A DNA stretch of 33,122 bases from a virus. The stretch lies in UHGV virus genome UHGV-0150051, one strand, 5' to 3'. Numbering within the stretch: the first letter of the stretch is position 1; every line of letters begins with the position of its first letter. Below, piece after piece: positions 3,361 through 11,798 of the stretch. Below the pieces are notes generated by a model that ran no database searches, was not told the origin of the DNA, and saw nothing but the letters and a program-made list of their open reading frames with translations. Position numbers and translations under genes: made by a program.

Positions 3361-3632
3361 GTATTCGTATTGAAATTGGCGAACGTTATGTCGTTACCAG
3401 TGACAGCTTTCAGTTTATTCTCCACGAGAAAAAGAGAGCTGAAAGCGGTAAAAACGCCGGTCAGGAATGGCTGGCGGTGGTTGGTTATTACCCGAAATTA
3501 AGCCAGCTCGTTTCCGGCCTGATGCATCACGATATTCTGACCGGAAGCGCAAAGTCTTTTGCTGATTTAAACGCGCAGGTTGAGCAACTCAGCAAGCGTT
3601 GTTCAAAGGCTTTTGGCTCATATGGCCGTTAA
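3357..3632 (+). CDS. Early hypothetical protein (P2 orf83 position)
   Basis: 91-aa ORF immediately upstream of A, 4-nt overlap with the zinc-finger ORF. Confidence 0.7.
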   Translation: MSIRIEIGERYVVTSDSFQFILHEKKRAESGKNAGQEWLAVVGYYPKLSQLVSGLMHHDILTGSAKSFADLNAQVEQLSKRCSKAFGSYGR

Positions 3633-5910
3633 AGCCTCCGGGCGTTTTGTCCCTCCGTCAGCATTTGCCGCAGGCACCGGTAAGACGTTTACCGGTGCTT
3701 ATGCATGGAACGCGTCACGCGAGGCCGTCGGGCGCGAAAGACCCCTTACACGTGACGAGATGCGTCAGGTGCAAGGTGTTTTATCCACGATTAACCGCCT
3801 GCCTTACTTTTTGCGCTCGCTGTTTACTTCACGCTATGACTACATCCGGCGCAATAAAAGCCCGGTGCACGGGTTTTATTTCCTCACATCCACTTTTCAG
3901 CGTCGTTTATGGCCGCGCATTGAGCGTGTGAATCAGCGCCATGAAATGAACACCGACGCGTCGTTGCTGTTTCTGGCAGAGCGTGATCACTATGCGCGCC
4001 TGCCGGGAATGAATGACAAGGAACTGAAAAAGTTTGCCGCCCGTATCTCATCGCAGCTTTTCATGATGTATGAGGAACTCAGCGATGCCTGGGTGGATGC
4101 GCATGGCGAAAAAGAATCACTATTTACGGATGAGGCTCAGGATCACCTGTATGGTCATGTTGCTGGCGCTGCACGAGCTTTCAATATTTCCCCTCTCTAC
4201 TGGAAAAAATACCGTAAAAGACAGATGACCACGAGGCAGGCATATTCTGCCATTGCCCGTCTGTTTAACGATGAGTGGTGGACTCATCAGCTTAAAGGCC
4301 AGCGTATGCGCTGGCATGAAGCGTTACTGATAGCTGTCGGGGAGGTCAATAAAGACCGTTCTCCTTATGCCAGTAAACACGCCATTCGTGATGTGCGTGC
4401 GCGCCGCCAGGCAAATCTGGAATTTCTTAAATCGTGTGACCTTGAAAACAGGGAAACCGGCGAGCGCATCGACCTTATCAGTAAGGTGATGGGCAGTATT
4501 TCTAATCCTGAAATTCGCCGGATGGAGCTGATGAACACCATTGCCGGTATTGAGCGTTACGCCGCTGCAGAGGGTGATGTGGGGATGTTTATCACGCTGA
4601 CCGCGCCGTCAAAGTATCACCCGACACGTCAGGTAGGAAAAGGCGAAAGTAAAACCGTGCAGCTTAATCACGGCTGGAACGATGAGGCATTTAATCCAAA
4701 GGATGCGCAGCGTTATCTCTGCCGTATCTGGAGCCTGATGCGCACGGCATTCAAGGATAATGATTTACAGGTCTACGGTTTGCGTGTCGTCGAGCCACAC
4801 CACGACGGAACGCCGCACTGGCATATGATGCTTTTTTGTAATTCACGCCAGCGTAACCAGATTATCGAAATCATGCGTCGCTATGCGCTCAAAGAGGATG
4901 GCGACGAAAGAGGAGCCGCGCGAAACCGTTTTCAGGCAAAACACCTTAACCGGGGCGGTGCTGCGGGATATATCGCGAAATACATTTCAAAAAACATCGA
5001 CGGCTATGCACTGGATGGTCAGCTCGATAACGACACCGGCAGGCCGCTGAAAGACACTGCAGCGGCTGTTACTGCATGGGCGTCAACGTGGCGCATCCCG
5101 CAATTTAAAACGGTTGGCCTGCCGACAATGGGGGCTTACCGTGAACTACGCAAATTGCCGCGCGGCGTCAGCATTGCTGATGAGTTTGACGAGCGCGTCG
5201 AGGCTGCACGCGCCGCCGCAGACAGTGGTGATTTTGCGTTGTATATCAGCGCGCAGGGTGGGGCAAATGTCCCGCGCGATTGTCAGACTGTCAGAGTCGC
5301 CCGTAGCCCGTCGGATGAAGTTAACGAGTACGAGGAAGAAGTCGAGAGAGTGGTCGGCATTTACGCGCCGCATCTCGGCGCGCGTCATATTCATATCACC
5401 AGAACGACGGACTGGCGCATTGTGCCGAAAGTTCCGGTCGTTGAGCCTTTGACTTTAAAAAGCGGCATCGCCGCGCCTCGGAGTCCTGTCAATAACTGTG
5501 GAAAGCCTGCCAGCAGTGATACTTCGTTACTGGCTCCCACGCCTTCTGAACACGCCGCAGCAGTGCTTAATCTGGTAGATGACGGTGTTATCGAATGGAA
5601 TGACCCGGAGGTCGTGAGGGCGCTAAGGGGCGCATTAAAACACGACCTGAGAACGCCAAATCGTCAGCAAAGAAACGGAAGCCCGTTAAAACCGCATGAG
5701 ATAGCGCCATCGGCCAGACTGACTAGGTCGGAACGAATGCAAATTACCCGTATCCGCGTTGACCTCGCTCAGAACGGTATCAGGCCGCAGCGATGGGAGC
5801 TTGAGGCGCTGGCGCGTGGCGCGACGGTAAAGTTTGACGGACGAAAGTTTATATATCCAATAAGTGGTGAGTGGAAGCAGTTTTTTAGTGGCTTTGATCT
5901 TTTTAAGTAA
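3622..5910 (+). CDS. A: Replication initiator A (rolling-circle HUH endonuclease)
   Basis: Long ORF; I place the start at the in-frame ATG 3622 (MAVKASGRF...), not the upstream ATG 3580 that overlaps the preceding ORF. Contains HUH-like PHWHMMLF and paired active-site tyrosines in YIAKYISK. Confidence 0.9.
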   Translation: MAVKASGRFVPPSAFAAGTGKTFTGAYAWNASREAVGRERPLTRDEMRQVQGVLSTINRLPYFLRSLFTSRYDYIRRNKSPVHGFYFLTSTFQRRLWPRIERVNQRHEMNTDASLLFLAERDHYARLPGMNDKELKKFAARISSQLFMMYEELSDAWVDAHGEKESLFTDEAQDHLYGHVAGAARAFNISPLYWKKYRKRQMTTRQAYSAIARLFNDEWWTHQLKGQRMRWHEALLIAVGEVNKDRSPYASKHAIRDVRARRQANLEFLKSCDLENRETGERIDLISKVMGSISNPEIRRMELMNTIAGIERYAAAEGDVGMFITLTAPSKYHPTRQVGKGESKTVQLNHGWNDEAFNPKDAQRYLCRIWSLMRTAFKDNDLQVYGLRVVEPHHDGTPHWHMMLFCNSRQRNQIIEIMRRYALKEDGDERGAARNRFQAKHLNRGGAAGYIAKYISKNIDGYALDGQLDNDTGRPLKDTAAAVTAWASTWRIPQFKTVGLPTMGAYRELRKLPRGVSIADEFDERVEAARAAADSGDFALYISAQGGANVPRDCQTVRVARSPSDEVNEYEEEVERVVGIYAPHLGARHIHITRTTDWRIVPKVPVVEPLTLKSGIAAPRSPVNNCGKPASSDTSLLAPTPSEHAAAVLNLVDDGVIEWNDPEVVRALRGALKHDLRTPNRQQRNGSPLKPHEIAPSARLTRSERMQITRIRVDLAQNGIRPQRWELEALARGATVKFDGRKFIYPISGEWKQFFSGFDLFK

Positions 5911-6090
5911 TTGCCTTAGAATACCCACGTTACCGCTTGGGAAATCTACCTAGCAATGCTCTTAGTATTAGCTTTATACAAAGGGTATAAAGGCTGCCAT
6001 TGGCAACAATGGTGCCAGCATGGAGATAATCTCATGTTAAGGTTAGTGAATGTACGACAGTACAACCGCTACCGCTTTGGGCGCTGGGAG

Positions 6091-6115
6091 ACGGTGCGTA
6101 AGCACCGTCGTTCTT
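6091..6115 (+). terminator. Hairpin (acggtgc-gtaa-gcaccgt) with weak T-tract, about 180 nt downstream of A
   Basis: 7-bp perfect stem with a 4-nt loop followed by cgttctt; orientation and function uncertain. Confidence 0.3.
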
Positions 6116-6137
6116 ACCCGAATCGGTAATATGCGGC

Positions 6138-8345
6138 CTAAGCGGTAACATTTACCTCTTCTTCACCCATCATTGTTAAGTAATGTTTCTCATCACCAGT
6201 CATTCTGAATATTTTGTGCAAGAGTTCTAAGTATTTCTCAGGTTCAATATCGCCCATATCTGTTATGTTTATTGCGTCGGAGTGAGAGCCTCTGTTTATA
6301 TATCTGTAAAAGGCACGGAAATGGCTGTTATTTTCATCATTTGTTAATTCAGTAAGCTTTGCCTCTAATGCGTCAGTTCTATGAACAAATGCAAAGTAAT
6401 ACTCAAGTATATTTCTCATAATATTGGGGATTATTATTTTGTTGATTTTTTTCTCTTTTGCATCTTTTAATACTTGCCAAAGGGATTGGTATTCATTTTG
6501 CACACTTTTTTTATCTATAGCACTAATGATGCTAAATTCATTTTTATTTATTCTGCCAAGAAAGTAGTCACGTTTAAAATTTATTCCTTTTTTAGAGGCG
6601 AGTTTTATTAACTCATGGAAGAAATAAAGATTATGGGTGAGGATTATTATTTTTGATGAAATGCCTTTTTCAATTATGTCATGATGGATCATGGATGCTA
6701 TGTCGAAAACATAGTTTTGAGATAAACTTGATATAGGATCATCTATAACTATGAGTTTATCACGCATATCAGTATCATTTTCATTTGTTTTACCCTTGCA
6801 ACATTCTAAAAAATATAGAAACGTTATTAATGTTTTTTCACCTTCGCTTAATGACCGATATACATCTTGTTTTCTATTGTTTCCATCGCGGGATATTATA
6901 TACTTATCTTTGAGTTCGGCGTGTTTATCAATGCTAAAACCAGAGATGCCAAGAAATTTAAGTCGTGAGTTTATTGCATCTATTGTTGCATCTACACTTG
7001 ATGTTTTATTTCTTAGTTCATTGATTTCATTTGTGTTGATCTCTTCTTTTCTTTTTATTTCCTGCATGAAGGATGCAGCGTTTTCATATTTTTCTTGAAA
7101 GTTTCTTTCGCAGTCTGATAGTATTTCAAATTCCGCGCTACATAAGTCTCTGATTGCTGCCCACATCTTTTCGCGAATATCTATTTCGCTATTATTAAAT
7201 CTTTTTACTTTGTCATTGAACTCGTTAATTTTATTGTTGTATTGTTCTATATCTTCTAATAGTTTTTCCTCTATCGACTTTTCAAACTCCAGCACAATGC
7301 TTATAGATGGATTCTCTATTTTATTATCCAATAGTTTAATGTTTTTTTCTGCAATAGTTTCTAATGCCTTAACATATGAAAGACTTTTATCTTTTTCGTC
7401 TTGGTTTATCACCTCACATGATAAAATGTTACTCTTTATTTCTTCATGATGATTTTTAATGGCATTATCATAAGATAGTTTTATTTGTTGTATTTGATCT
7501 ACTTTTCTTGAGTATGTTTCATCAAAGATAGATTCAATGGCTTTAATAAAATTATCATCTATTGTGTCCCTTTGGCAAAATGGACAAATTTCTCCATTTA
7601 AATATAGCTCTTTGCCTTGTTTAATCCAATCAATATTTTGTAGCTCTTTTATTGCTTCAGATAAATAGCTGTTGCTAGAGTCAATAATTGGTGTGGATAA
7701 TGTTTTTTGAGTTTCTTCAGATAAAACATATCCTTTATAAGGAGTTATCAGAGGTATTTCTTTTCCTTTAAACTCGAGAAGTTTGCTATAAGATTGTATT
7801 AATGATTTTATATCAATATCAGTTTGTGGAGTATACTTTTTTAGATGGTAATAGAAAGTGGCTTTGCTTCCTATTTGACCTTTCATTAATTGTTTTAATT
7901 CTGAACTTCTTATGTCTTTGGTCTTATTCCATATGGAATTTATGCATTCTTGCTCTTTTTTGTTTTTCGCTTCATGGAGTTTTTCGATAAATTCTTTTTT
8001 TTCTTTATGCTGATGTGCTAGTGATTTGTTTAGCTCTTCTTTTTCAGATAGTATTTTTTCAATTTCTGCATTTTTTTGACTGAGGGTAAATATACCTTTT
8101 TGCTCTTTTGCATTATAAAAATTATCTTCTATATATTTTGAGTTGTAGACTAGGGTTCGATAATTATCGATGGGTTCGCATACACATTCCTTATAGGCGG
8201 TGTCTTTAGGATTGTAAAAATAATTTGATATGGTAGATTTTCCACAACCATTTTGCCCATACAATATGTTTATTTTTTTGGATAAATCTAACTCAGTAAA
8301 ATATTCTTTATGATAGCTTGTTACGTTTTTGAGTTTTAATTTCAT
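6138..8345 (-). CDS. Rad50/SMC-like ABC ATPase with long coiled-coil insert and C-terminal domain of unknown function; candidate single-gene anti-phage defence (RloC-like?)
   Basis: 735-aa ORF, visibly AT-rich against the backbone. Walker A GQNGCGKST (res 30-38), ABC signature-like LSEGEK (499-504), Walker B LIVIDDP (531-537), H-loop LTHN (569-572). About 400 K/E-rich residues lie between Walker A and the signature; CPFC at res 254-257 (nt 7575-7586). Good RBS (GAGGG) upstream of the ATG. Confidence 0.85.
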   Translation of the reverse strand: MKLKLKNVTSYHKEYFTELDLSKKINILYGQNGCGKSTISNYFYNPKDTAYKECVCEPIDNYRTLVYNSKYIEDNFYNAKEQKGIFTLSQKNAEIEKILSEKEELNKSLAHQHKEKKEFIEKLHEAKNKKEQECINSIWNKTKDIRSSELKQLMKGQIGSKATFYYHLKKYTPQTDIDIKSLIQSYSKLLEFKGKEIPLITPYKGYVLSEETQKTLSTPIIDSSNSYLSEAIKELQNIDWIKQGKELYLNGEICPFCQRDTIDDNFIKAIESIFDETYSRKVDQIQQIKLSYDNAIKNHHEEIKSNILSCEVINQDEKDKSLSYVKALETIAEKNIKLLDNKIENPSISIVLEFEKSIEEKLLEDIEQYNNKINEFNDKVKRFNNSEIDIREKMWAAIRDLCSAEFEILSDCERNFQEKYENAASFMQEIKRKEEINTNEINELRNKTSSVDATIDAINSRLKFLGISGFSIDKHAELKDKYIISRDGNNRKQDVYRSLSEGEKTLITFLYFLECCKGKTNENDTDMRDKLIVIDDPISSLSQNYVFDIASMIHHDIIEKGISSKIIILTHNLYFFHELIKLASKKGINFKRDYFLGRINKNEFSIISAIDKKSVQNEYQSLWQVLKDAKEKKINKIIIPNIMRNILEYYFAFVHRTDALEAKLTELTNDENNSHFRAFYRYINRGSHSDAINITDMGDIEPEKYLELLHKIFRMTGDEKHYLTMMGEEEVNVTA

Positions 8346-8631
8346 TTTATCCCTCTTTTTATTCTTTTTATATTTAGCCTTAAGTGTTCGAGGTTGCCTT
8401 CCTCAACGATAGAGATCTAACCTAACTTTTTGATTTATTCAAGAGAATTTAGTGAGTTATATGTAAAGATGTGGATGCTTAGCTATGTGGTTGGGGGTTA
8501 TTTCAGTATGAATTCATTTGATGCATCATTTTGCATGTACCTGTTAGGCATTTTCTAACTTTGCAGTGTCAGAACTGGCGTACTTTAGGCCATTCATGCA
8601 AGTGCATTAAAACCGCCCCATTAAGCGGGCG

Positions 8632-8650
8632 GGCGAGGCGGGGAAAGCAC
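8632..8650 (+). other. cos: cos site (19-nt cohesive end sequence GGCGAGGCGGGGAAAGCAC)
   Basis: Exact match to the P2 cohesive-end sequence as I recall it, between the cargo gene and portal gene Q where P2 cos lies. Confidence 0.7.
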
Positions 8651-8818: not shown

Positions 8819-9853
8819 TCAGCTGTTGTCAGTGTCCAGTGAGTAGTTTTTAAAGCGGATGACCTCCTGACCGAGCCAGCCGTTTATTTCCCGAATCCTG
8901 TCCTGTAACGGGATAAGCTCATTGCGGACAAAGACCTTTGCCACTTTCTCAATATCACCCAGCGACCCGACGTTCTCCGGCTTACCGCCCATCAACTGAA
9001 AGGGGATGCGGTGCGCGTCCAGCAGGTCAGCGGCGCTTGCTTTTTTGATATTAAAAAAATCGTCCTTCGTTGCCACTTCACTGAGCGGGATAATTTTAAT
9101 GCCGTCGGCTTTCCCCTGTGGGGCATAGAGAAACAGATTTTTAAAGTTGTTGCGGCCTTTCGACTTCACCATGTTTTCGCGGAGCATTTCGATATCGTTG
9201 CGATCCTGCACGGCATCGGTGACGTACATGATGTATCCAGCATGTGCGCCGTTTTCGTAATACTTGCGGCGGAACAGCGTGGCCGATTCATTCAGCCAGG
9301 CAGAGTTAAGGGCGCTGAGATATTCCGGCAGGCCGTACAGTTCCTGATTAATATCCGGCTCCAGCAGATGAAACACGGAGCCGGGCGCGAAAGGTGTCGG
9401 CTCGTTGAAGGACGGCACCCACCAGTAAACATCCTCCTCCACGCCACGGCGGGTATATTTTGCCGGTGAGGTTTCCAGTCTGATGACCTTACCGGTGGTG
9501 CTGTAACGCTTTTCCAGAAACGCATTACCGAAAACCAGAAAATCCAGCACAAAGCGGCTGAAATCCTGCTGGGAAAGCCACGGATGCGGGATAAACGTTG
9601 AAGCCAGAATATTACGTTTGACGTAAATCGGTGAGCTGTGATGTACGGCAGCACGCAGGCTTTTTGCCAGACCGGTAAAGCTGACCGGTGGCTCATACCA
9701 TCTGCCGTTACTGATGCACTCGACGTAATCCAGAATGTCACGGCGGTCGAGTACCGGCACCGGCTCACCAAAGGTGAATGCCTCCATTTTCGGGGCGCTG
9801 GCGGTCATTGTTTTCACCGCTGGCTGCGGTGTTTTCCCTTTTTTCTTGCTCAT
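8819..9853 (-). CDS. Q: Portal protein Q
   Basis: 344-aa ORF (P2 Q is 344 aa); adjacent to cos and to terminase P with a 1-nt overlap. Confidence 0.95.
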   Translation of the reverse strand: MSKKKGKTPQPAVKTMTASAPKMEAFTFGEPVPVLDRRDILDYVECISNGRWYEPPVSFTGLAKSLRAAVHHSSPIYVKRNILASTFIPHPWLSQQDFSRFVLDFLVFGNAFLEKRYSTTGKVIRLETSPAKYTRRGVEEDVYWWVPSFNEPTPFAPGSVFHLLEPDINQELYGLPEYLSALNSAWLNESATLFRRKYYENGAHAGYIMYVTDAVQDRNDIEMLRENMVKSKGRNNFKNLFLYAPQGKADGIKIIPLSEVATKDDFFNIKKASAADLLDAHRIPFQLMGGKPENVGSLGDIEKVAKVFVRNELIPLQDRIREINGWLGQEVIRFKNYSLDTDNS

Positions 9854-11625
9854 CAGTAAAACTCCAGAATGGTGGATGTCAGCGGGGTGCTGATACCGGC
9901 GGTGAGTGGCTCATTTAACAGGGCGTGCATGGTCGCCCAGGCGAGGTCGGCGTGGCTGGCTTCCTCGCTGCGGCTGGCCTCATAGGTGGCGCTGCGTCCG
10001 CTGCTGGTCATGGTCTTGCGGATAGCCATAAACGAGCTGGTGATGTCGGTGGCGCTGACGTCGTATTCCAGACAGCCACGGCGGATAACGTCTTTTGCCT
10101 TGAGCACCATTGCGGTTTTCATTTCCGGCGTGTAGCGGATATCGCGCGCGGCGGGATAGAACGAGCGAACGAGCTGGAACACGCCGACACCGAGGCCGGT
10201 GGCATCAATTCCGATGTATTCGACGTTGTATTTTTCGGTGAGTTTGCGGATGGATTCAGCCTGAGTGGCAAAGTCCATGCCTTTCCACTGGTGACGCTCA
10301 AGTATTCTGAATTTGCCACCGGCCACCACCGGCGGTGCCAGCACCACGCATCCGGCACTGTCGCCACGGTGTGACGGGTCGTAACCAATCCATACCGGGC
10401 GGGAGCCGAACGGATTGGCGGCAAACGGCGCATAGTCTTCCCATTCTTCCAGCGTGTCGACCATGCAGCGTTGCAGCTCCTCGAACGGGAACACCGACGC
10501 CTTGTCGTCAACAAATTCACACATGAACAGGTTTTTAAAATCGTCGGCGCTGTTTTCACGTTTGAGCTGCTCAATGTCGAACAGCGTGCAGCCGCCTTTC
10601 AGCGCGTCCTCAATGGTGACAATCTGCCGCCACTGGCCGTCCGCACAGAGAAGACCTCCGGCAAGGGCGTTATGACTGACGTCGATTTCCACGCGTTCGG
10701 CGGCGCTGGCGCGACCCCGGTTGAACAGTTCACCCGACCAGAACGGGTAGGCGTCGTGCGCCAGCGTGGACGGGGTGGAGAAATAGGTCGAGCGCAGGTG
10801 ACTCTGTGAGGCCATACCTGATGCCACCTTACGCAGTACCTGAAAATTCGGGATCCAGAAAATCTCATCGACGTACAGGTCGCCGTTATGGCTCTGTGCG
10901 GTGTTGGAGTTGGTGCCGAGAAAAATCAGTTTTGCGCTGTTATTGCCCAGGACAATCGGGTCACCGGTCAGGTCAACGTCAACCAGCCGGGCAAAGGCGA
11001 TGATGTATTCGCGGAACACATACGCCTGCGTTTTACTGGCCGACAGAAAAATCTGGTTATGACCGGTTTTCAGGGCGCGCAGCAGCGCCTCGCGGGAAAA
11101 ATAAAACGTCGCGCCAATCTGGCGGGATTTCAGGATATCGCGGATGCGGTGCTCAAGCCCGGCGCGATACCAGTGCAACTGATATTCGAAAGACTGCTCA
11201 AAGAAAATCTGCTCCAGCTTTTCGATGGCCTCGTCACTGAAAAAATTCTTTTTCGGTTTGCGACGCCCGCCTTTGTTGCGGTTAGCGACGTTCGGATTAA
11301 GGTCTGCCTCGTTGCCGGTCTGACTGTAACGGTTGACCCGTGCCAGTCGTTCAATCTGGCGTCCGAGCAGGTCAATTTCCTTGAAGTCACCGCCGGTTTT
11401 CTGCGGTTTGATGATGAGCTGGGTCAGCCGCGCTTCCAGACTCATTTCGACACGGCTGATGGGGGCAACGCTGTCCCAGCCGTCGCGCTGTTTCCAGCTC
11501 TGCACCGTCGGGCGTTTCATCTGCAACATGGCGGCAATCTGCGGCACGGAAAATCCCTGCCAGTACAGCAGCGCCGCCTGACGACGCGGGTCGTGTAAAA
11601 GAGTGGTGTCTGTGGTGATGGTCAT
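9853..11625 (-). CDS. P: Terminase large subunit P (ATPase)
   Basis: Long ORF; start set at the internal ATG 11625 (MTITTDTTLLHDP...), about 590 aa, the P2 P length as I recall it. Confidence 0.92.
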   Translation of the reverse strand: MTITTDTTLLHDPRRQAALLYWQGFSVPQIAAMLQMKRPTVQSWKQRDGWDSVAPISRVEMSLEARLTQLIIKPQKTGGDFKEIDLLGRQIERLARVNRYSQTGNEADLNPNVANRNKGGRRKPKKNFFSDEAIEKLEQIFFEQSFEYQLHWYRAGLEHRIRDILKSRQIGATFYFSREALLRALKTGHNQIFLSASKTQAYVFREYIIAFARLVDVDLTGDPIVLGNNSAKLIFLGTNSNTAQSHNGDLYVDEIFWIPNFQVLRKVASGMASQSHLRSTYFSTPSTLAHDAYPFWSGELFNRGRASAAERVEIDVSHNALAGGLLCADGQWRQIVTIEDALKGGCTLFDIEQLKRENSADDFKNLFMCEFVDDKASVFPFEELQRCMVDTLEEWEDYAPFAANPFGSRPVWIGYDPSHRGDSAGCVVLAPPVVAGGKFRILERHQWKGMDFATQAESIRKLTEKYNVEYIGIDATGLGVGVFQLVRSFYPAARDIRYTPEMKTAMVLKAKDVIRRGCLEYDVSATDITSSFMAIRKTMTSSGRSATYEASRSEEASHADLAWATMHALLNEPLTAGISTPLTSTILEFY

Positions 11626-11798
11626 GAATACCTCGCCGTGATGAATACACGGCAAGGCTACTGAGTCGCGCCCCGCGATTCGCTAAGGTGCTGTTGTGTC
11701 AGTGATAAGCCATCCGGGACTGATGGCGGAGGATGCGCATCGTCGGGAAACTGATGCCGACATGTGACTCCTCTAATCACTATTCAGGACTCCTGACA
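11626..11798 (+). promoter_or_regulatory. Divergent late promoter region between P and O
   Basis: Intergenic region between divergently transcribed late operons; contains the inverted repeat CCGTG-N7-CACGG at 11634-11650. Individual promoter elements not resolved. Confidence 0.4.

What the first reader, a model, noticed from the sequence alone, without database searches (positions are those of the whole stretch)
6138..8345. Single 735-aa Rad50/SMC-like ABC ATPase as the only cargo at the tin/old hotspot
Between replication gene A and cos, where P2 carries orf91, tin and old, this element has one large AT-rich gene antisense to A. The protein has a split ABC ATPase head: Walker A GQNGCGKST near the N-terminus, then signature LSEGEK, Walker B LIVIDDP and H-loop LTHN about 460 residues later. 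The intervening ~400 residues are K/E-rich and coiled-coil-like. This position is a known defence-gene hotspot in P2-like phages. It has no TOPRIM-like region (unlike Old) and no partner gene (unlike PARIS, Septu or Gabija), so it may be a single-gene defence of the RloC/AAA_13 type or something not yet described.
Basis: partly seen in the sequence, partly recalled or inferred. Interest (0 to 1): 0.8.

Follow-up and report, generated by a model that had tools for sequence, protein, structure and literature searches.

The report
RloC-like tRNA nuclease with hidden partner
The large AT-rich gene in this P2-like prophage's defence slot belongs to the known RloC family of DNA-damage-sensing tRNA-cutting enzymes (already catalogued at this slot but never tested there), and it is not alone: a conserved, unannotated 31-residue peptide gene with a structured RNA leader always travels with it.

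Summary

It is a full-length member of Pfam AAA_13 (E 5e-104) and PADLOC candidate PDC-S06 (E 4e-254). It meets every sequence-level criterion of RloC:
- a Rad50-like ABC head;
- a helical insert with an invariant CPFC hook (C254/C257);
- a C-terminal HEPN-type anticodon-nuclease triad, R644-X3-E648-X39-S687-H688.

Rousset et al. 2022 (Table S5B) already list this cargo as P2-hotspot system #5, 'AAA_13, RloC-like', with 420 occurrences and no test. The main call is therefore a known kind.

New here: 'only cargo, no partner' is wrong. A convergent 31-codon ORF (6034-6129, +) follows a three-hairpin leader. It accompanies every enterobacterial RloC-like allele I examined, including copies outside P2 prophages. 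It is better conserved than the nuclease gene (79-89% vs 60-68% DNA identity). It shows coding selection (pN/pS 0.27) and covariation in the leader. Its function is unknown.

Most likely mechanism, by inference: DNA ends and ATP activate tRNA anticodon cleavage, causing abortive infection. This parallels the tRNase activity recently reported for P2 Old.

The parts
6138..8345 (-). RloC-like gene, 735 aa. Domain order: ABC ATPase N-lobe, coiled-coil with zinc hook, ABC ATPase C-lobe, HEPN-type anticodon-nuclease domain.
   Evidence: ORF. Pfam AAA_13 full length, E 4.9e-104. PADLOC PDC-S06 E 4e-254 and PrrC model E 3.4e-16 on aa 434-716. AF2 model with mean pLDDT 82. Rad50 is the top structural match.
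8232..8258 (-). Walker A / P-loop GQNGCGKST (aa 30-38; K36).
   Evidence: G30, N32, G35, K36 and T38 are invariant in 66 homologues. Corresponds to GkaRloC K44, whose mutation abolishes ACNase.
6951..8078 (-). Helical K/E-rich insert (aa ~90-465) that splits the ATPase head. It forms the coiled-coil arms.
   Evidence: AF2 helices 90-141, 264-309, 315-344, 356-401 and 403-448. Composition 13% K and 13% E.
7575..7586 (-). CxxC zinc-hook motif C254-P-F-C257 (followed by Q258), in the loop at the middle of the insert.
   Evidence: C254 and C257 are invariant in 66 sequences; P255, F256 and Q258 are conserved in at least 90%. They lie in the non-helical loop 249-263 of the model. This is RloC's defining CX2C.
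6837..6851 (-). ABC signature LSEGE (aa 499-503).
   Evidence: Invariant.
6726..6755 (-). Walker B / D-loop LIVIDDPISS (aa 531-540; D535, D536).
   Evidence: I534, D535, D536, P537, S539 and S540 are invariant. Corresponds to GkaRloC D572.
6633..6638 (-). H-loop / switch T570-H571.
   Evidence: H571 is invariant and T570 is conserved in at least 90%.
6141..6518 (-). C-terminal helical domain (aa ~610-735) carrying the triad R644 (6414-6416), E648 (6402-6404) and S687-H688 (6282-6287). It ends in an acidic tail, EEEVNVTA.
6034..6129 (+). Unannotated 31-codon ORF, MLRLVNVRQYNRYRFGRWETVRKHRRSYPNR. It is convergent with the RloC-like gene, the two stop codons 8 nt apart, and has GGAG 8 nt upstream of the ATG.
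   Evidence: Present beside every enterobacterial RloC-like allele examined, in P2 prophages and at 3 kinds of non-P2 site. In-frame pN/pS is 0.27, against 1.6 and 2.2 out of frame. PHROG 21154, E 1.5e-9.
5972..6037 (+). Structured leader of the small ORF. H1 is 5972-5992. H2 is 5993-6015, with a GCAA loop. H3 is 6018-6037 and pairs the GGAG and the AUG.
   Evidence: H1 is paired in 100% of cells, including a UA to CG double change and G.U changes that work only on the + strand. H2 has a pair that is UA, AU or CG. Folding gives z -3.4 on the + strand and -1.8 on the - strand. Sub-threshold full-length Rfam hit to RT-6 (RF03027), 23.1 bits, E 0.004.
6090..6109 (.). 8-bp hairpin GACGGTGC-GTAA-GCACCGTC inside the small ORF, 29-48 nt beyond the RloC-like stop. 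It could be a 3' stem-loop for either convergent transcript.
   Evidence: Inverted repeat. It is paired in 85% of cells and the covariation is weak. No U-tract follows it, so a terminator role is not shown.
5875..8567 (.). Variable cassette of the hotspot. Backbone homology to a P2-like phage that carries cdtABC in the same slot ends at 5874, inside the last 12 codons of A, and resumes at 8568.
   Evidence: blastn against L011 (KC618326).
8632..8650 (+). P2 cos cohesive-end 19-mer.
   Evidence: Exact match; 0.01 expected by chance. The 19-mer sequence was recalled from memory.

Best explanation
The gene encodes an RloC-family anticodon nuclease carried as lysogenic-conversion cargo in the tin/old hotspot of a P2-like prophage.

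Proposed mechanism, by analogy with G. kaustophilus and A. baylyi RloC (inferred, not shown here):
1. The protein dimerises through its Rad50-like ABC head.
2. Intramolecular Zn-hook joints at the tip of the coiled coil keep the C-terminal HEPN-type RNase silent.
3. Linear DNA ends appear, from phage-induced chromosome breakdown, replicating or packaged phage DNA, or RecBCD inhibition. They bind the head, and one round of ATP hydrolysis releases the nuclease.
4. The nuclease cuts tRNA anticodon loops, possibly excising the wobble nucleotide so that phage Pnk/Rnl repair fails.
5. Translation stops and the infection aborts.

Shown here: family membership by sequence motifs and fold, the genomic position, and the gene's distribution. 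Inferred: the trigger, the substrate and the phenotype.

This clade also has an obligately linked, convergently encoded 31-aa highly basic peptide. A leader hairpin occludes that peptide's ribosome-binding site. I propose that it modulates the nuclease, as an antidote, a silencer or an expression governor. That role is a hypothesis.
For: - Full-length AAA_13 match and PDC-S06 and PrrC HMM matches.
- Invariant Walker A, signature, Walker B, H-loop, CPFC and R-X3-E...S-H across 22-66 homologues down to 19% identity.
- These are exactly the RloC criteria of Davidov & Kaufmann 2008: CX2C in a helical insert, R-X3-E-X36-52-H with Ser before His, and 658-897 aa.
- The spacing matches GkaRloC's mutationally validated residues K44/C291/D572/R692/E696/H737, against K36/C254/D535/R644/E648/H688 here. 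C to D is 281 vs 281, R to E is 4 vs 4, and E to H is 41 vs 40.
- Distant homologues are named 'wobble nucleotide-excising tRNase' by JGI.
- The AF2 model has a Rad50-like head with long helices, and its top PDB matches are Rad50. The C-domain resembles HEPN RNases and is classed as HEPN in the literature.
- The same slot, portal | X | A, is occupied by diverged alleles in E. coli, Enterobacter, Yersinia and Serratia prophages.
- Rousset 2022 labels this hotspot cargo 'RloC-like'.
- RloC's DNA-end and ATP switch is documented.
- A 2026 preprint reports that P2 Old, the classical occupant of this slot, is an ABC-ATPase-gated abortive tRNase triggered by DNA ends and hairpins. The logic therefore fits the niche.
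- Small-ORF linkage and selection.
Against: - No experiment in the papers I found shows that any RloC protects against phage. It is listed as 'not tested', and Klaiman 2013 discusses persistence as an alternative role.
- Identity to classical RloCs from other phyla is only about 25-30%. I could not align directly to the G. kaustophilus or A. baylyi sequences, because neither was retrieved.
- The catalytic His lies in a low-confidence loop of the model (pLDDT below 50 at 686-697).
- The 2025 language-model preprint discusses a PDC-S06 E. coli ATPase among high-scoring proteins as a probable true positive called by PADLOC. I read this as suggesting that DefenseFinder's RloC model may not call the clade, but the passage does not say so.
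- No convincing promoter was found for the gene.
- The role of the small peptide is unknown. Its relatives also occur without an adjacent AAA_13 gene.
Confidence: 0.6

Rival explanations
1. It is an RloC-like protein in architecture but works differently. The HEPN domain cleaves other RNA (mRNA or rRNA), or the trigger is a phage protein, or loss of the small peptide, rather than DNA ends. On this view the enterobacterial clade is a functionally distinct two-component toxin-antidote type Abi system.
For: - Identity to characterised-type RloCs is only 25-31%.
- The clade has a linked peptide gene that is absent from distant RloC loci L008-L043.
- The clade has an acidic C-terminal tail that the distant members lack.
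- Peptide relatives sit next to other ABC-ATPase and Abi genes.
- PADLOC keeps it as a separate candidate family.
Against: All the residues that matter for the RloC switch and for catalysis are invariant and co-linear. That is most simply explained by the same chemistry and the same gating.
Confidence: 0.22
2. It is a Rad50/SbcC- or Lamassu/OLD-like DNA-directed defence or repair ATPase. It recognises and helps destroy or process foreign DNA, and the C-terminal domain is a non-catalytic adaptor.
For: The top structural matches are Rad50, SMC heads, Lamassu LmuB and AriA. The hotspot classically holds Old, long thought to be a DNase.
Against: - There is no Mre11/SbcD, LmuA or TOPRIM partner or domain.
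- The C-domain carries the invariant PrrC/RloC catalytic triad and matches the PrrC HMM.
- Old itself is now reported to be a tRNase.
Confidence: 0.05
3. It is not primarily antiviral. It could be a prophage-borne stress or persistence factor, or an addiction (post-segregational) module. In that case the labile or tightly regulated small peptide counteracts the stable nuclease and so stabilises the prophage or island.
For: - Klaiman 2013 raise persistence as an alternative role, and they saw only partial tRNA cleavage in the native host.
- The pair travels as a unit on several mobile contexts and at one chromosomal site.
- The convergent small gene with an occluded RBS resembles toxin-antitoxin layouts.
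Against: - The slot is a documented defence hotspot, with many validated systems there.
- A very basic 31-aa peptide is not a typical antitoxin for an RNase.
- There is no evidence of toxicity here.
Confidence: 0.1
4. The small ORF and its leader are unrelated to the nuclease. They would be a separate small moron, or a cis element (3' end of the A operon, terminator or recombination junction), that happens to sit at the cassette edge.
For: - It lies just after gene A, on the A strand.
- Relatives occur in Stx phages, plasmids and islands with no AAA_13 neighbour.
- The leader resembles an Rfam motif defined next to reverse-transcriptase genes.
Against: - It is absent from a P2-like phage with other cargo.
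- It keeps the same convergent, 8-35 nt stop-to-stop position beside RloC-like genes outside P2 altogether: L055, L005-7 and L065.
- It is more conserved than the nuclease gene and shows codon-level purifying selection.
Confidence: 0.2

Closest known systems
RloC (Geobacillus kaustophilus GkaRloC; Acinetobacter baylyi AbaRloC), COG4694 / Pfam AAA_13
   Same: Same domain order and size. The ABC ATPase motifs, the CX2C hook in the middle of a helical insert, and the C-terminal R-X3-E-X~40-(S)H triad are all present, with near-identical spacing. It is a stand-alone gene not linked to restriction-modification and sits on horizontally moving DNA.
   Different: Identity to RloC-type proteins of other phyla is only about 25-30%. 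This clade has an acidic C-terminal tail and an obligately linked convergent 31-aa peptide gene with a structured leader, which I did not find at the distant RloC loci I held. No activity data exist for this clade.
PADLOC candidate PDC-S06, and 'AAA_13, RloC-like' system #5 of the P2 hotspot (Rousset et al. 2022, Table S5B)
   Same: This is the same protein family at the same locus. The match to the PDLC04886 model is full length. Rousset's representative is 47% identical over its 399 listed residues with no gaps. WP_021547827, listed in their table, sits in an equivalent locus (L045).
   Different: Both catalogues treat it as a single gene and neither tested it. The small ORF is not in their tables as held.
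PrrC anticodon nuclease (E. coli prr locus)
   Same: It has an ABC-type NTPase followed by a HEPN ACNase with the Arg-Glu-His triad. The PrrC HMM matches aa 434-716 (E 3e-16). Both fit an abortive-infection logic.
   Different: PrrC has no coiled-coil or hook insert and is about 400 aa. It is always embedded in a type Ic hsd locus that silences it, it is triggered by T4 Stp, and it nicks tRNA-Lys rather than excising a nucleotide.
P2 Old (ABC ATPase + TOPRIM), the classical occupant of this slot
   Same: It occupies the same prophage slot. Per the 2026 preprint it follows the same logic: an ABC ATPase senses aberrant DNA or DNA ends and gates a tRNase, whose double cut defeats repair.
   Different: The effector is unrelated (TOPRIM, not HEPN). 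Old has no coiled-coil hook, and its autoinhibited form is a tetramer. There is no sequence relationship beyond the ABC fold.
Rad50/SbcC and Lamassu LmuB
   Same: Best structural matches for the head plus coiled coil. Rad50 shares the CxxC zinc hook.
   Different: Those proteins act with a separate nuclease (Mre11/SbcD, LmuA) on DNA and lack a C-terminal RNase domain. Their coiled coils are longer.
PHROG 21154 (small phage protein, unknown function) and Rfam RT-6 motif (RF03027)
   Same: The 31-aa peptide matches PHROG 21154 (E 1.5e-9). Its leader gives a full-length but sub-threshold RT-6 hit, and the model's terminal 'aug' aligns with the ORF's start codon.
   Different: Neither has a known function. 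The RT-6 score of 23 bits is far below the gathering score of 46.7, so membership is not established. RT-6 was defined by proximity to reverse-transcriptase genes, and none is in this window.

Membership tests
RloC (wobble nucleotide-excising anticodon nuclease) | N-terminal ABC ATPase motifs: Walker A, signature, Walker B/D-loop, switch His. | tested here: met
   GQNGCGKST 30-38, LSEGE 499-503, IDDPISS 534-540 and H571 are invariant in 66 homologues.
RloC (wobble nucleotide-excising anticodon nuclease) | The ATPase is split by a long alpha-helical (coiled-coil) insert with a central CX2C zinc-hook loop. | tested here: met
   C254-P-F-C257 is invariant and lies in loop 249-263 between long predicted helices. 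Rad50 is the top fold match. Zinc binding itself cannot be tested here.
RloC (wobble nucleotide-excising anticodon nuclease) | C-terminal Arg-X3-Glu-X36-52-His motif, with Ser often before His (Davidov & Kaufmann 2008). | tested here: met
   R644-X3-E648-X39-S687-H688. R and E are invariant and S-H is conserved in at least 90%, down to 16-23% identity.
RloC (wobble nucleotide-excising anticodon nuclease) | Size 658-897 aa and co-linearity with the mutationally validated GkaRloC residues K44, C291, D572, R692, E696 and H737. | tested here: met
   735 aa. The spacings are C to D 281 vs 281, R to E 4 vs 4, and E to H 40 vs 41. This compares published residue numbers, not an alignment to the Gka sequence, which I could not retrieve.
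RloC (wobble nucleotide-excising anticodon nuclease) | Family-model match (Pfam AAA_13 / COG4694). | tested here: met
   PF13166 covers positions 9-712 of 713, E 4.9e-104. Homologues P0059 and P0065 are named 'wobble nucleotide-excising tRNase' by JGI.
RloC (wobble nucleotide-excising anticodon nuclease) | Excises the tRNA wobble nucleotide; the ACNase is switched on by linear DNA plus ATP hydrolysis, and hook mutants are constitutive. | not testable with these tools
   Needs biochemistry or tRNA-seq. Known only for the Gka and Aba orthologues.
RloC (wobble nucleotide-excising anticodon nuclease) | Stand-alone gene with an internal switch and no external silencer gene. | tested here: inconclusive
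   There is no R-M gene in the cassette. However, a conserved 31-aa ORF is always adjacent in this clade, and its role is unknown.
HEPN RNase superfamily (PrrC/RloC/APECO1_4465 family of Anantharaman 2013) | All-helical HEPN fold of the nuclease domain with conserved catalytic Arg and His. | tested here: inconclusive
   [not shown]
PrrC | Contiguous ABC NTPase without a coiled-coil insert (about 400 aa); gene embedded in a type Ic hsd (R-M) locus. | tested here: not met
   A 375-aa helical insert is present, and there are no hsd genes in the window cassette or in homologous loci. Only the PrrC HMM's C-terminal two-thirds match.
Rad50/SbcC DNA-repair ATPases | Operonic Mre11/SbcD nuclease partner; no C-terminal RNase domain. 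| tested here: not met
   No such neighbour exists in any locus. An extra C-terminal domain with the ACNase triad is present.
OLD family (P2 Old, Gabija GajA, PARIS AriAB) | ABC ATPase fused to, or paired with, a TOPRIM nuclease. | tested here: not met
   There is no TOPRIM hit in Pfam or PADLOC, only weak ATPase-level hits to AriA and PtuA.
PADLOC PDC-S06 (candidate single-gene system) | Full-length match to a PDC-S06 HMM. | tested here: met
   PDLC04886 E 4e-254, aa 2-728 against profile positions 4-724 of 727.
Rfam RT-6 RNA (RF03027), for the leader of the small ORF | Score at or above the gathering threshold (46.7 bits). | tested here: not met
   23.1 bits, E 0.004-0.009, full model length. 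This is a resemblance only.

The most novel reading that the evidence does not exclude
The enterobacterial RloC-like clade is not a single-gene system but an obligate two-part module. It pairs a DNA-end-gated HEPN tRNase with a convergently encoded 31-aa arginine-rich peptide. Translation of the peptide is controlled by a leader hairpin that occludes the Shine-Dalgarno site. The peptide would act as the nuclease's silencer, antidote or sensor, for example by binding the clade-specific acidic C-terminal tail or by reporting translational or tRNA status. The same peptide family (PHROG 21154) would serve as a portable regulator for other ABC-ATPase and Abi nucleases on plasmids and phages.
Probability: 0.3. 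Interest if true: 0.7.

Novelty: new variant of a known kind. Interest (0 to 1): 0.45.

Why it matters
RloC has been on defence-system lists since 2008 on biochemical grounds alone. No paper I could find shows it stopping a phage. This E. coli prophage version sits in a validated defence hotspot of a genetically tractable host, so that long-open question can be tested directly.

The 2026 report that P2 Old is a DNA-defect-gated tRNase adds a second point. The same prophage slot would then alternate between two unrelated nucleases, TOPRIM and HEPN, that implement the same rule: sense broken or aberrant DNA, then cut tRNA beyond repair.

The conserved but unannotated micro-ORF and its leader matter practically. 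Catalogues and cloning designs that treat the system as one gene may omit a needed component. That omission could explain toxicity or lack of phenotype.

Tried and rejected
- PDB sequence search found no hit.
- The genome scan meant to retrieve the experimentally studied G. kaustophilus and A. baylyi RloCs returned 32 other species. Residue mapping to them therefore rests on published numbers.
- NCBIfam has no specific model, and PHROG 2801 has unknown function.
- Megablast against INPHARED phages found only the cos/portal flank, so this allele is not in a sequenced free phage. Enterobacter phage ENT4 carries a related allele.
- The promoter scan gave no more sites than shuffled sequence and none convincing upstream of the gene.
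- I rejected the mechanically listed 57-aa ORF (5956-6129). Its first 26 codons are broken by stops in other alleles, and only the last 31 codons are conserved.
- Hairpins H3 and H4 show no real covariation, so I keep them as tentative.
- The other Rfam hits (snoRNAs, RAGATH-16) are noise.
- Literature searches for 'PDC-S06', 'AAA_13' and 'RloC + efficiency of plating' found no functional test of this family.
The alignment search found only 16 called proteins.
Full report
**1. The observation**

The window is a P2-like prophage. Gene A (replication endonuclease) lies at 3580-5910 (+), and portal Q and terminase P lie at 8819-11655 (-). The P2 cos 19-mer, which I recalled from memory, matches exactly at 8632-8650.

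Between A and cos lies one 735-codon ORF, 6138-8345 (-). Its GC is 0.30 and its GC3 0.26, against 0.53-0.57 in the flanking genes.
- GQNGCGKST at 30-38;
- LSEGE at 499-503;
- LIVIDDP at 531-537;
- LTHN at 569-572.

The intervening 375 residues are 13% K and 13% E and are predicted as long helices.

I compared the window with a P2-like phage that carries cdtABC in the same slot. Backbone homology stops at 5874 and resumes at 8568, so the variable cassette is about 5875-8567.

**2. What the protein is**

Family models:
- It matches Pfam AAA_13 over the whole model (E 4.9e-104).
- It matches the PADLOC candidate family PDC-S06 (E 4e-254).
- It gives a weaker match to the PrrC model over aa 434-716 (E 3.4e-16).
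- NCBIfam and PHROGs give no function, and no solved structure is detectable by sequence.

Conservation was read from alignments of 22 and 66 homologues, reaching down to 19% identity.
- C254-P-F-C257-Q in the middle of the insert;
- N641, R644-x-x-x-E648 and S687-H688 in the C-terminal domain.

Davidov & Kaufmann (2008) define RloC as an ABC ATPase split by a coiled-coil/CX2C zinc-hook insert, plus a C-terminal 'Arg-X3-Glu-X36-52-His, where Ser often precedes His'. They give a size of 658-897 aa and note that it is rarely linked to R-M. This protein fits every point.

The published functional residues of G. kaustophilus RloC are K44, C291, D572, R692, E696 and H737. They map co-linearly onto K36, C254, D535, R644, E648 and H688, with almost identical spacing. 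JGI names two of the distant homologues 'wobble nucleotide-excising tRNase'.

Structure:
- An AlphaFold2 model (mean pLDDT 82) has a two-lobed head, long helices and the CxxC in a loop.
- Its best PDB matches are Rad50 in Mre11-Rad50 complexes, then SMC heads, Lamassu LmuB, AriA and PtuA.
- These scores are modest. They agree with the published assignment of the PrrC/RloC nuclease domains to the HEPN superfamily.

**3. What was already known about it at this locus**

Their representative is 47% identical to this protein over the 399 residues shown.
- It is not among the systems they tested: AAA_13 does not occur in their Table S2.
- Anantharaman et al. 2013 list a PrrC/RloC/APECO1_4465 HEPN family and say the E. 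coli type 'is also found in prophages'.
- A 2025 preprint notes an E. coli PDC-S06 ATPase as a likely true positive.
- RefSeq calls the gene 'AAA family ATPase'.

Distribution:
- This allele (at least 95% DNA identity) is in 13 complete E. coli genomes. Diverged alleles bring the total to 126 of 5426.
- The exact protein's 90% cluster has 133 members in E. coli, E. albertii and Shigella.
- Alleles 44-64% identical occupy the same portal | X | A slot in prophages of Enterobacter, Yersinia and Serratia, and in metagenomic contigs.
- Alleles of 40-41% identity sit in other mobile islands.
- RloC-type proteins 24-33% identical are spread over many phyla.

**4. Mechanism**

The Kaufmann laboratory showed the following for the G. 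kaustophilus and A. baylyi enzymes:
- The C-terminal triad is the anticodon nuclease.
- Walker A and Walker B mutants are nuclease-null.
- Linear DNA plus ATP or GTP hydrolysis switches the nuclease on, and circular DNA does not.
- Hook mutants are constitutively active.
- DSB inducers activate the enzyme in vivo.
- The enzyme excises the wobble nucleotide, a lesion that phage Pnk/Rnl repair should not be able to reverse.

All of these residues are invariant here. The best-supported explanation is therefore the same: a DNA-end- and ATP-gated tRNase that aborts infection. This is inference; nothing here measures activity.

I found no paper demonstrating phage protection by any RloC.

A July 2026 preprint reports that P2 Old, the classical occupant of this slot, is an ABC-ATPase-gated abortive tRNase. 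It is triggered by unresolved DNA ends and ssDNA hairpins and removes the anticodon arm by two cuts. The RloC-like cargo would then be a functional analogue of the gene it replaces, built with an unrelated nuclease.

**5. The gene is not alone**

The 227 nt between the stop of A and the stop of the RloC-like gene are 79-89% identical among alleles. The nuclease genes of those same alleles are only 60-68% identical in DNA and 51-65% in protein.

Within this stretch a 31-codon ORF is preserved in every allele. It runs 6034-6129 (+), reads MLRLVNVRQYNRYRFGRWETVRKHRRSYPNR, and has GGAG 8 nt upstream. The longer 57-codon reading is not preserved.

Coding signature:
- in-frame pN/pS is 0.27 (pS 0.62), against 1.6 and 2.2 in the other two frames;
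- variable columns by codon position number 13, 11 and 27.

The ORF is convergent with the nuclease gene, the stop codons 8 nt apart in the P2-type loci.

It is not a P2 backbone feature:
- It is absent from the cdt-carrying phage.
- It is present at the same relative position (stop codons 8-35 nt apart) next to RloC-like genes in an E. coli integrase/radical-SAM island (L055), in a Pectobacterium relaxase/ToxN/TIR island (L005-7), and at a chromosomal site between chemoreceptor and NUDIX genes (L065).
- A profile of the peptide finds nothing (E above 0.01) at the distant RloC loci L008-L043.

The ORF is preceded by a leader that folds well on the + strand (-24.7 kcal/mol, z -3.4, against z -1.8 on the - strand). 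On 11 sequences:
- Hairpin 1 (5972-5992) is paired in 100% of cells. Four of its pairs vary, including a UA to CG double change and G.U changes that are valid only on the + strand.
- Hairpin 2 (5993-6015, GCAA loop) has one pair that is UA, AU or CG.
- Hairpin 3 (6018-6037) pairs the GGAG and the AUG but does not vary.
- Overall 88% of cells pair, against 25-55% for slid partners. The covariation score is reached by 9 of 500 shuffles.

The sample is small, so I regard H1 and H2 as supported and H3 and H4 as tentative.

Rfam gives a full-length but sub-threshold hit to RT-6 (RF03027; 23 bits against a gathering score of 46.7; E 0.004). RT-6 is an uncharacterised motif defined next to reverse-transcriptase genes. 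This is a resemblance, not membership.

The peptide matches PHROG 21154, of unknown function (E 1.5e-9). It has tblastn relatives on 130 plasmids and in some Stx phages. In the few contexts I inspected, these relatives lie:
- convergent with an 'Abi family protein';
- head-to-head with AAA_15/DUF2813 ABC ATPases;
- in accessory slots with no obvious ATPase.

Its function is unknown. I propose a regulator or antidote of the nuclease as a hypothesis. I note without evidence that this clade, unlike distant RloCs, ends in an acidic tail.

**6. Verdict**

It is RloC/AAA_13-type, it is not undescribed, and it has a partner.

The main gene is a new member of a known, already catalogued kind. The obligately linked micro-ORF and its leader are, as far as I could find, unreported. 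They make this clade a variant of the kind.

Interest is moderate. There is no surprise in the protein, but it offers a tractable route to the still-missing in vivo proof of RloC defence, a neat parallel with Old, and a practical warning that the 'single gene' may need its small neighbour.

Noticed in passing
window 5972-6129 (+): Unannotated 31-codon basic ORF (6034-6129) with a three-hairpin leader, convergent with the RloC-like gene. It is more conserved than that gene, linked to it in and outside P2 prophages, and matches PHROG 21154. The leader gives a sub-threshold Rfam RT-6 hit.
   Followed up: yes
window 18071-19242 (-): A second low-GC island (about 0.34) holds two ORFs, 261 aa and 128 aa. 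It lies between tail-completion-like and baseplate-like genes, which is the position of P2 orf30. There is no PADLOC hit and only a sub-threshold DUF6535 hit. It could be another cargo or defence slot.
   Followed up: partly
window 24224-26768: A third low-GC island (0.32-0.39) lies at the Z/fun slot, between the tail-fibre gene (21366-24224) and the sheath-like gene (26769-27959). It has a 372-aa family-2 glycosyltransferase (24434-25552, -; PF00535, E 1.6e-28), possibly for O-antigen or receptor modification. About 1.2 kb (25553-26768) has no ORF of at least 90 aa apart from two overlapping 91-116-aa ones.
   Followed up: partly
window 8356-8593: The roughly 240 nt upstream of the RloC-like start codon, between the gene and the conserved cos flank, cannot be aligned between alleles that otherwise align on both sides. 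The promoter or regulatory region therefore seems allele-specific. A good RBS (AGAGGG) precedes the ATG, but no convincing sigma-70 promoter was found.
   Followed up: partly
window 5875-5910: The homology break with a P2-like phage carrying other cargo falls inside the last 12 codons of gene A. Cassette exchange therefore replaces the C-terminal tip of the replication protein.
   Followed up: no
[not shown]
   Followed up: no
window 6141-6170 (aa 726-735) and alignment A1: Enterobacterial RloC-like proteins end in an acidic tail, commonly finishing in V/A-T-A, that distant RloCs lack. The tail occurs in the same clade as the very basic peptide.
   Followed up: no
L049 3159-5087 (Acinetobacter plasmid p3_010034): A relative of the small peptide lies convergent with an 'Abi family protein', beside DUF4145 and Fic genes. 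Other relatives lie head-to-head with AAA_15/DUF2813 ATPases (L056, L057, L059). The peptide family may be a recurrent companion of abortive-infection genes.
   Followed up: partly
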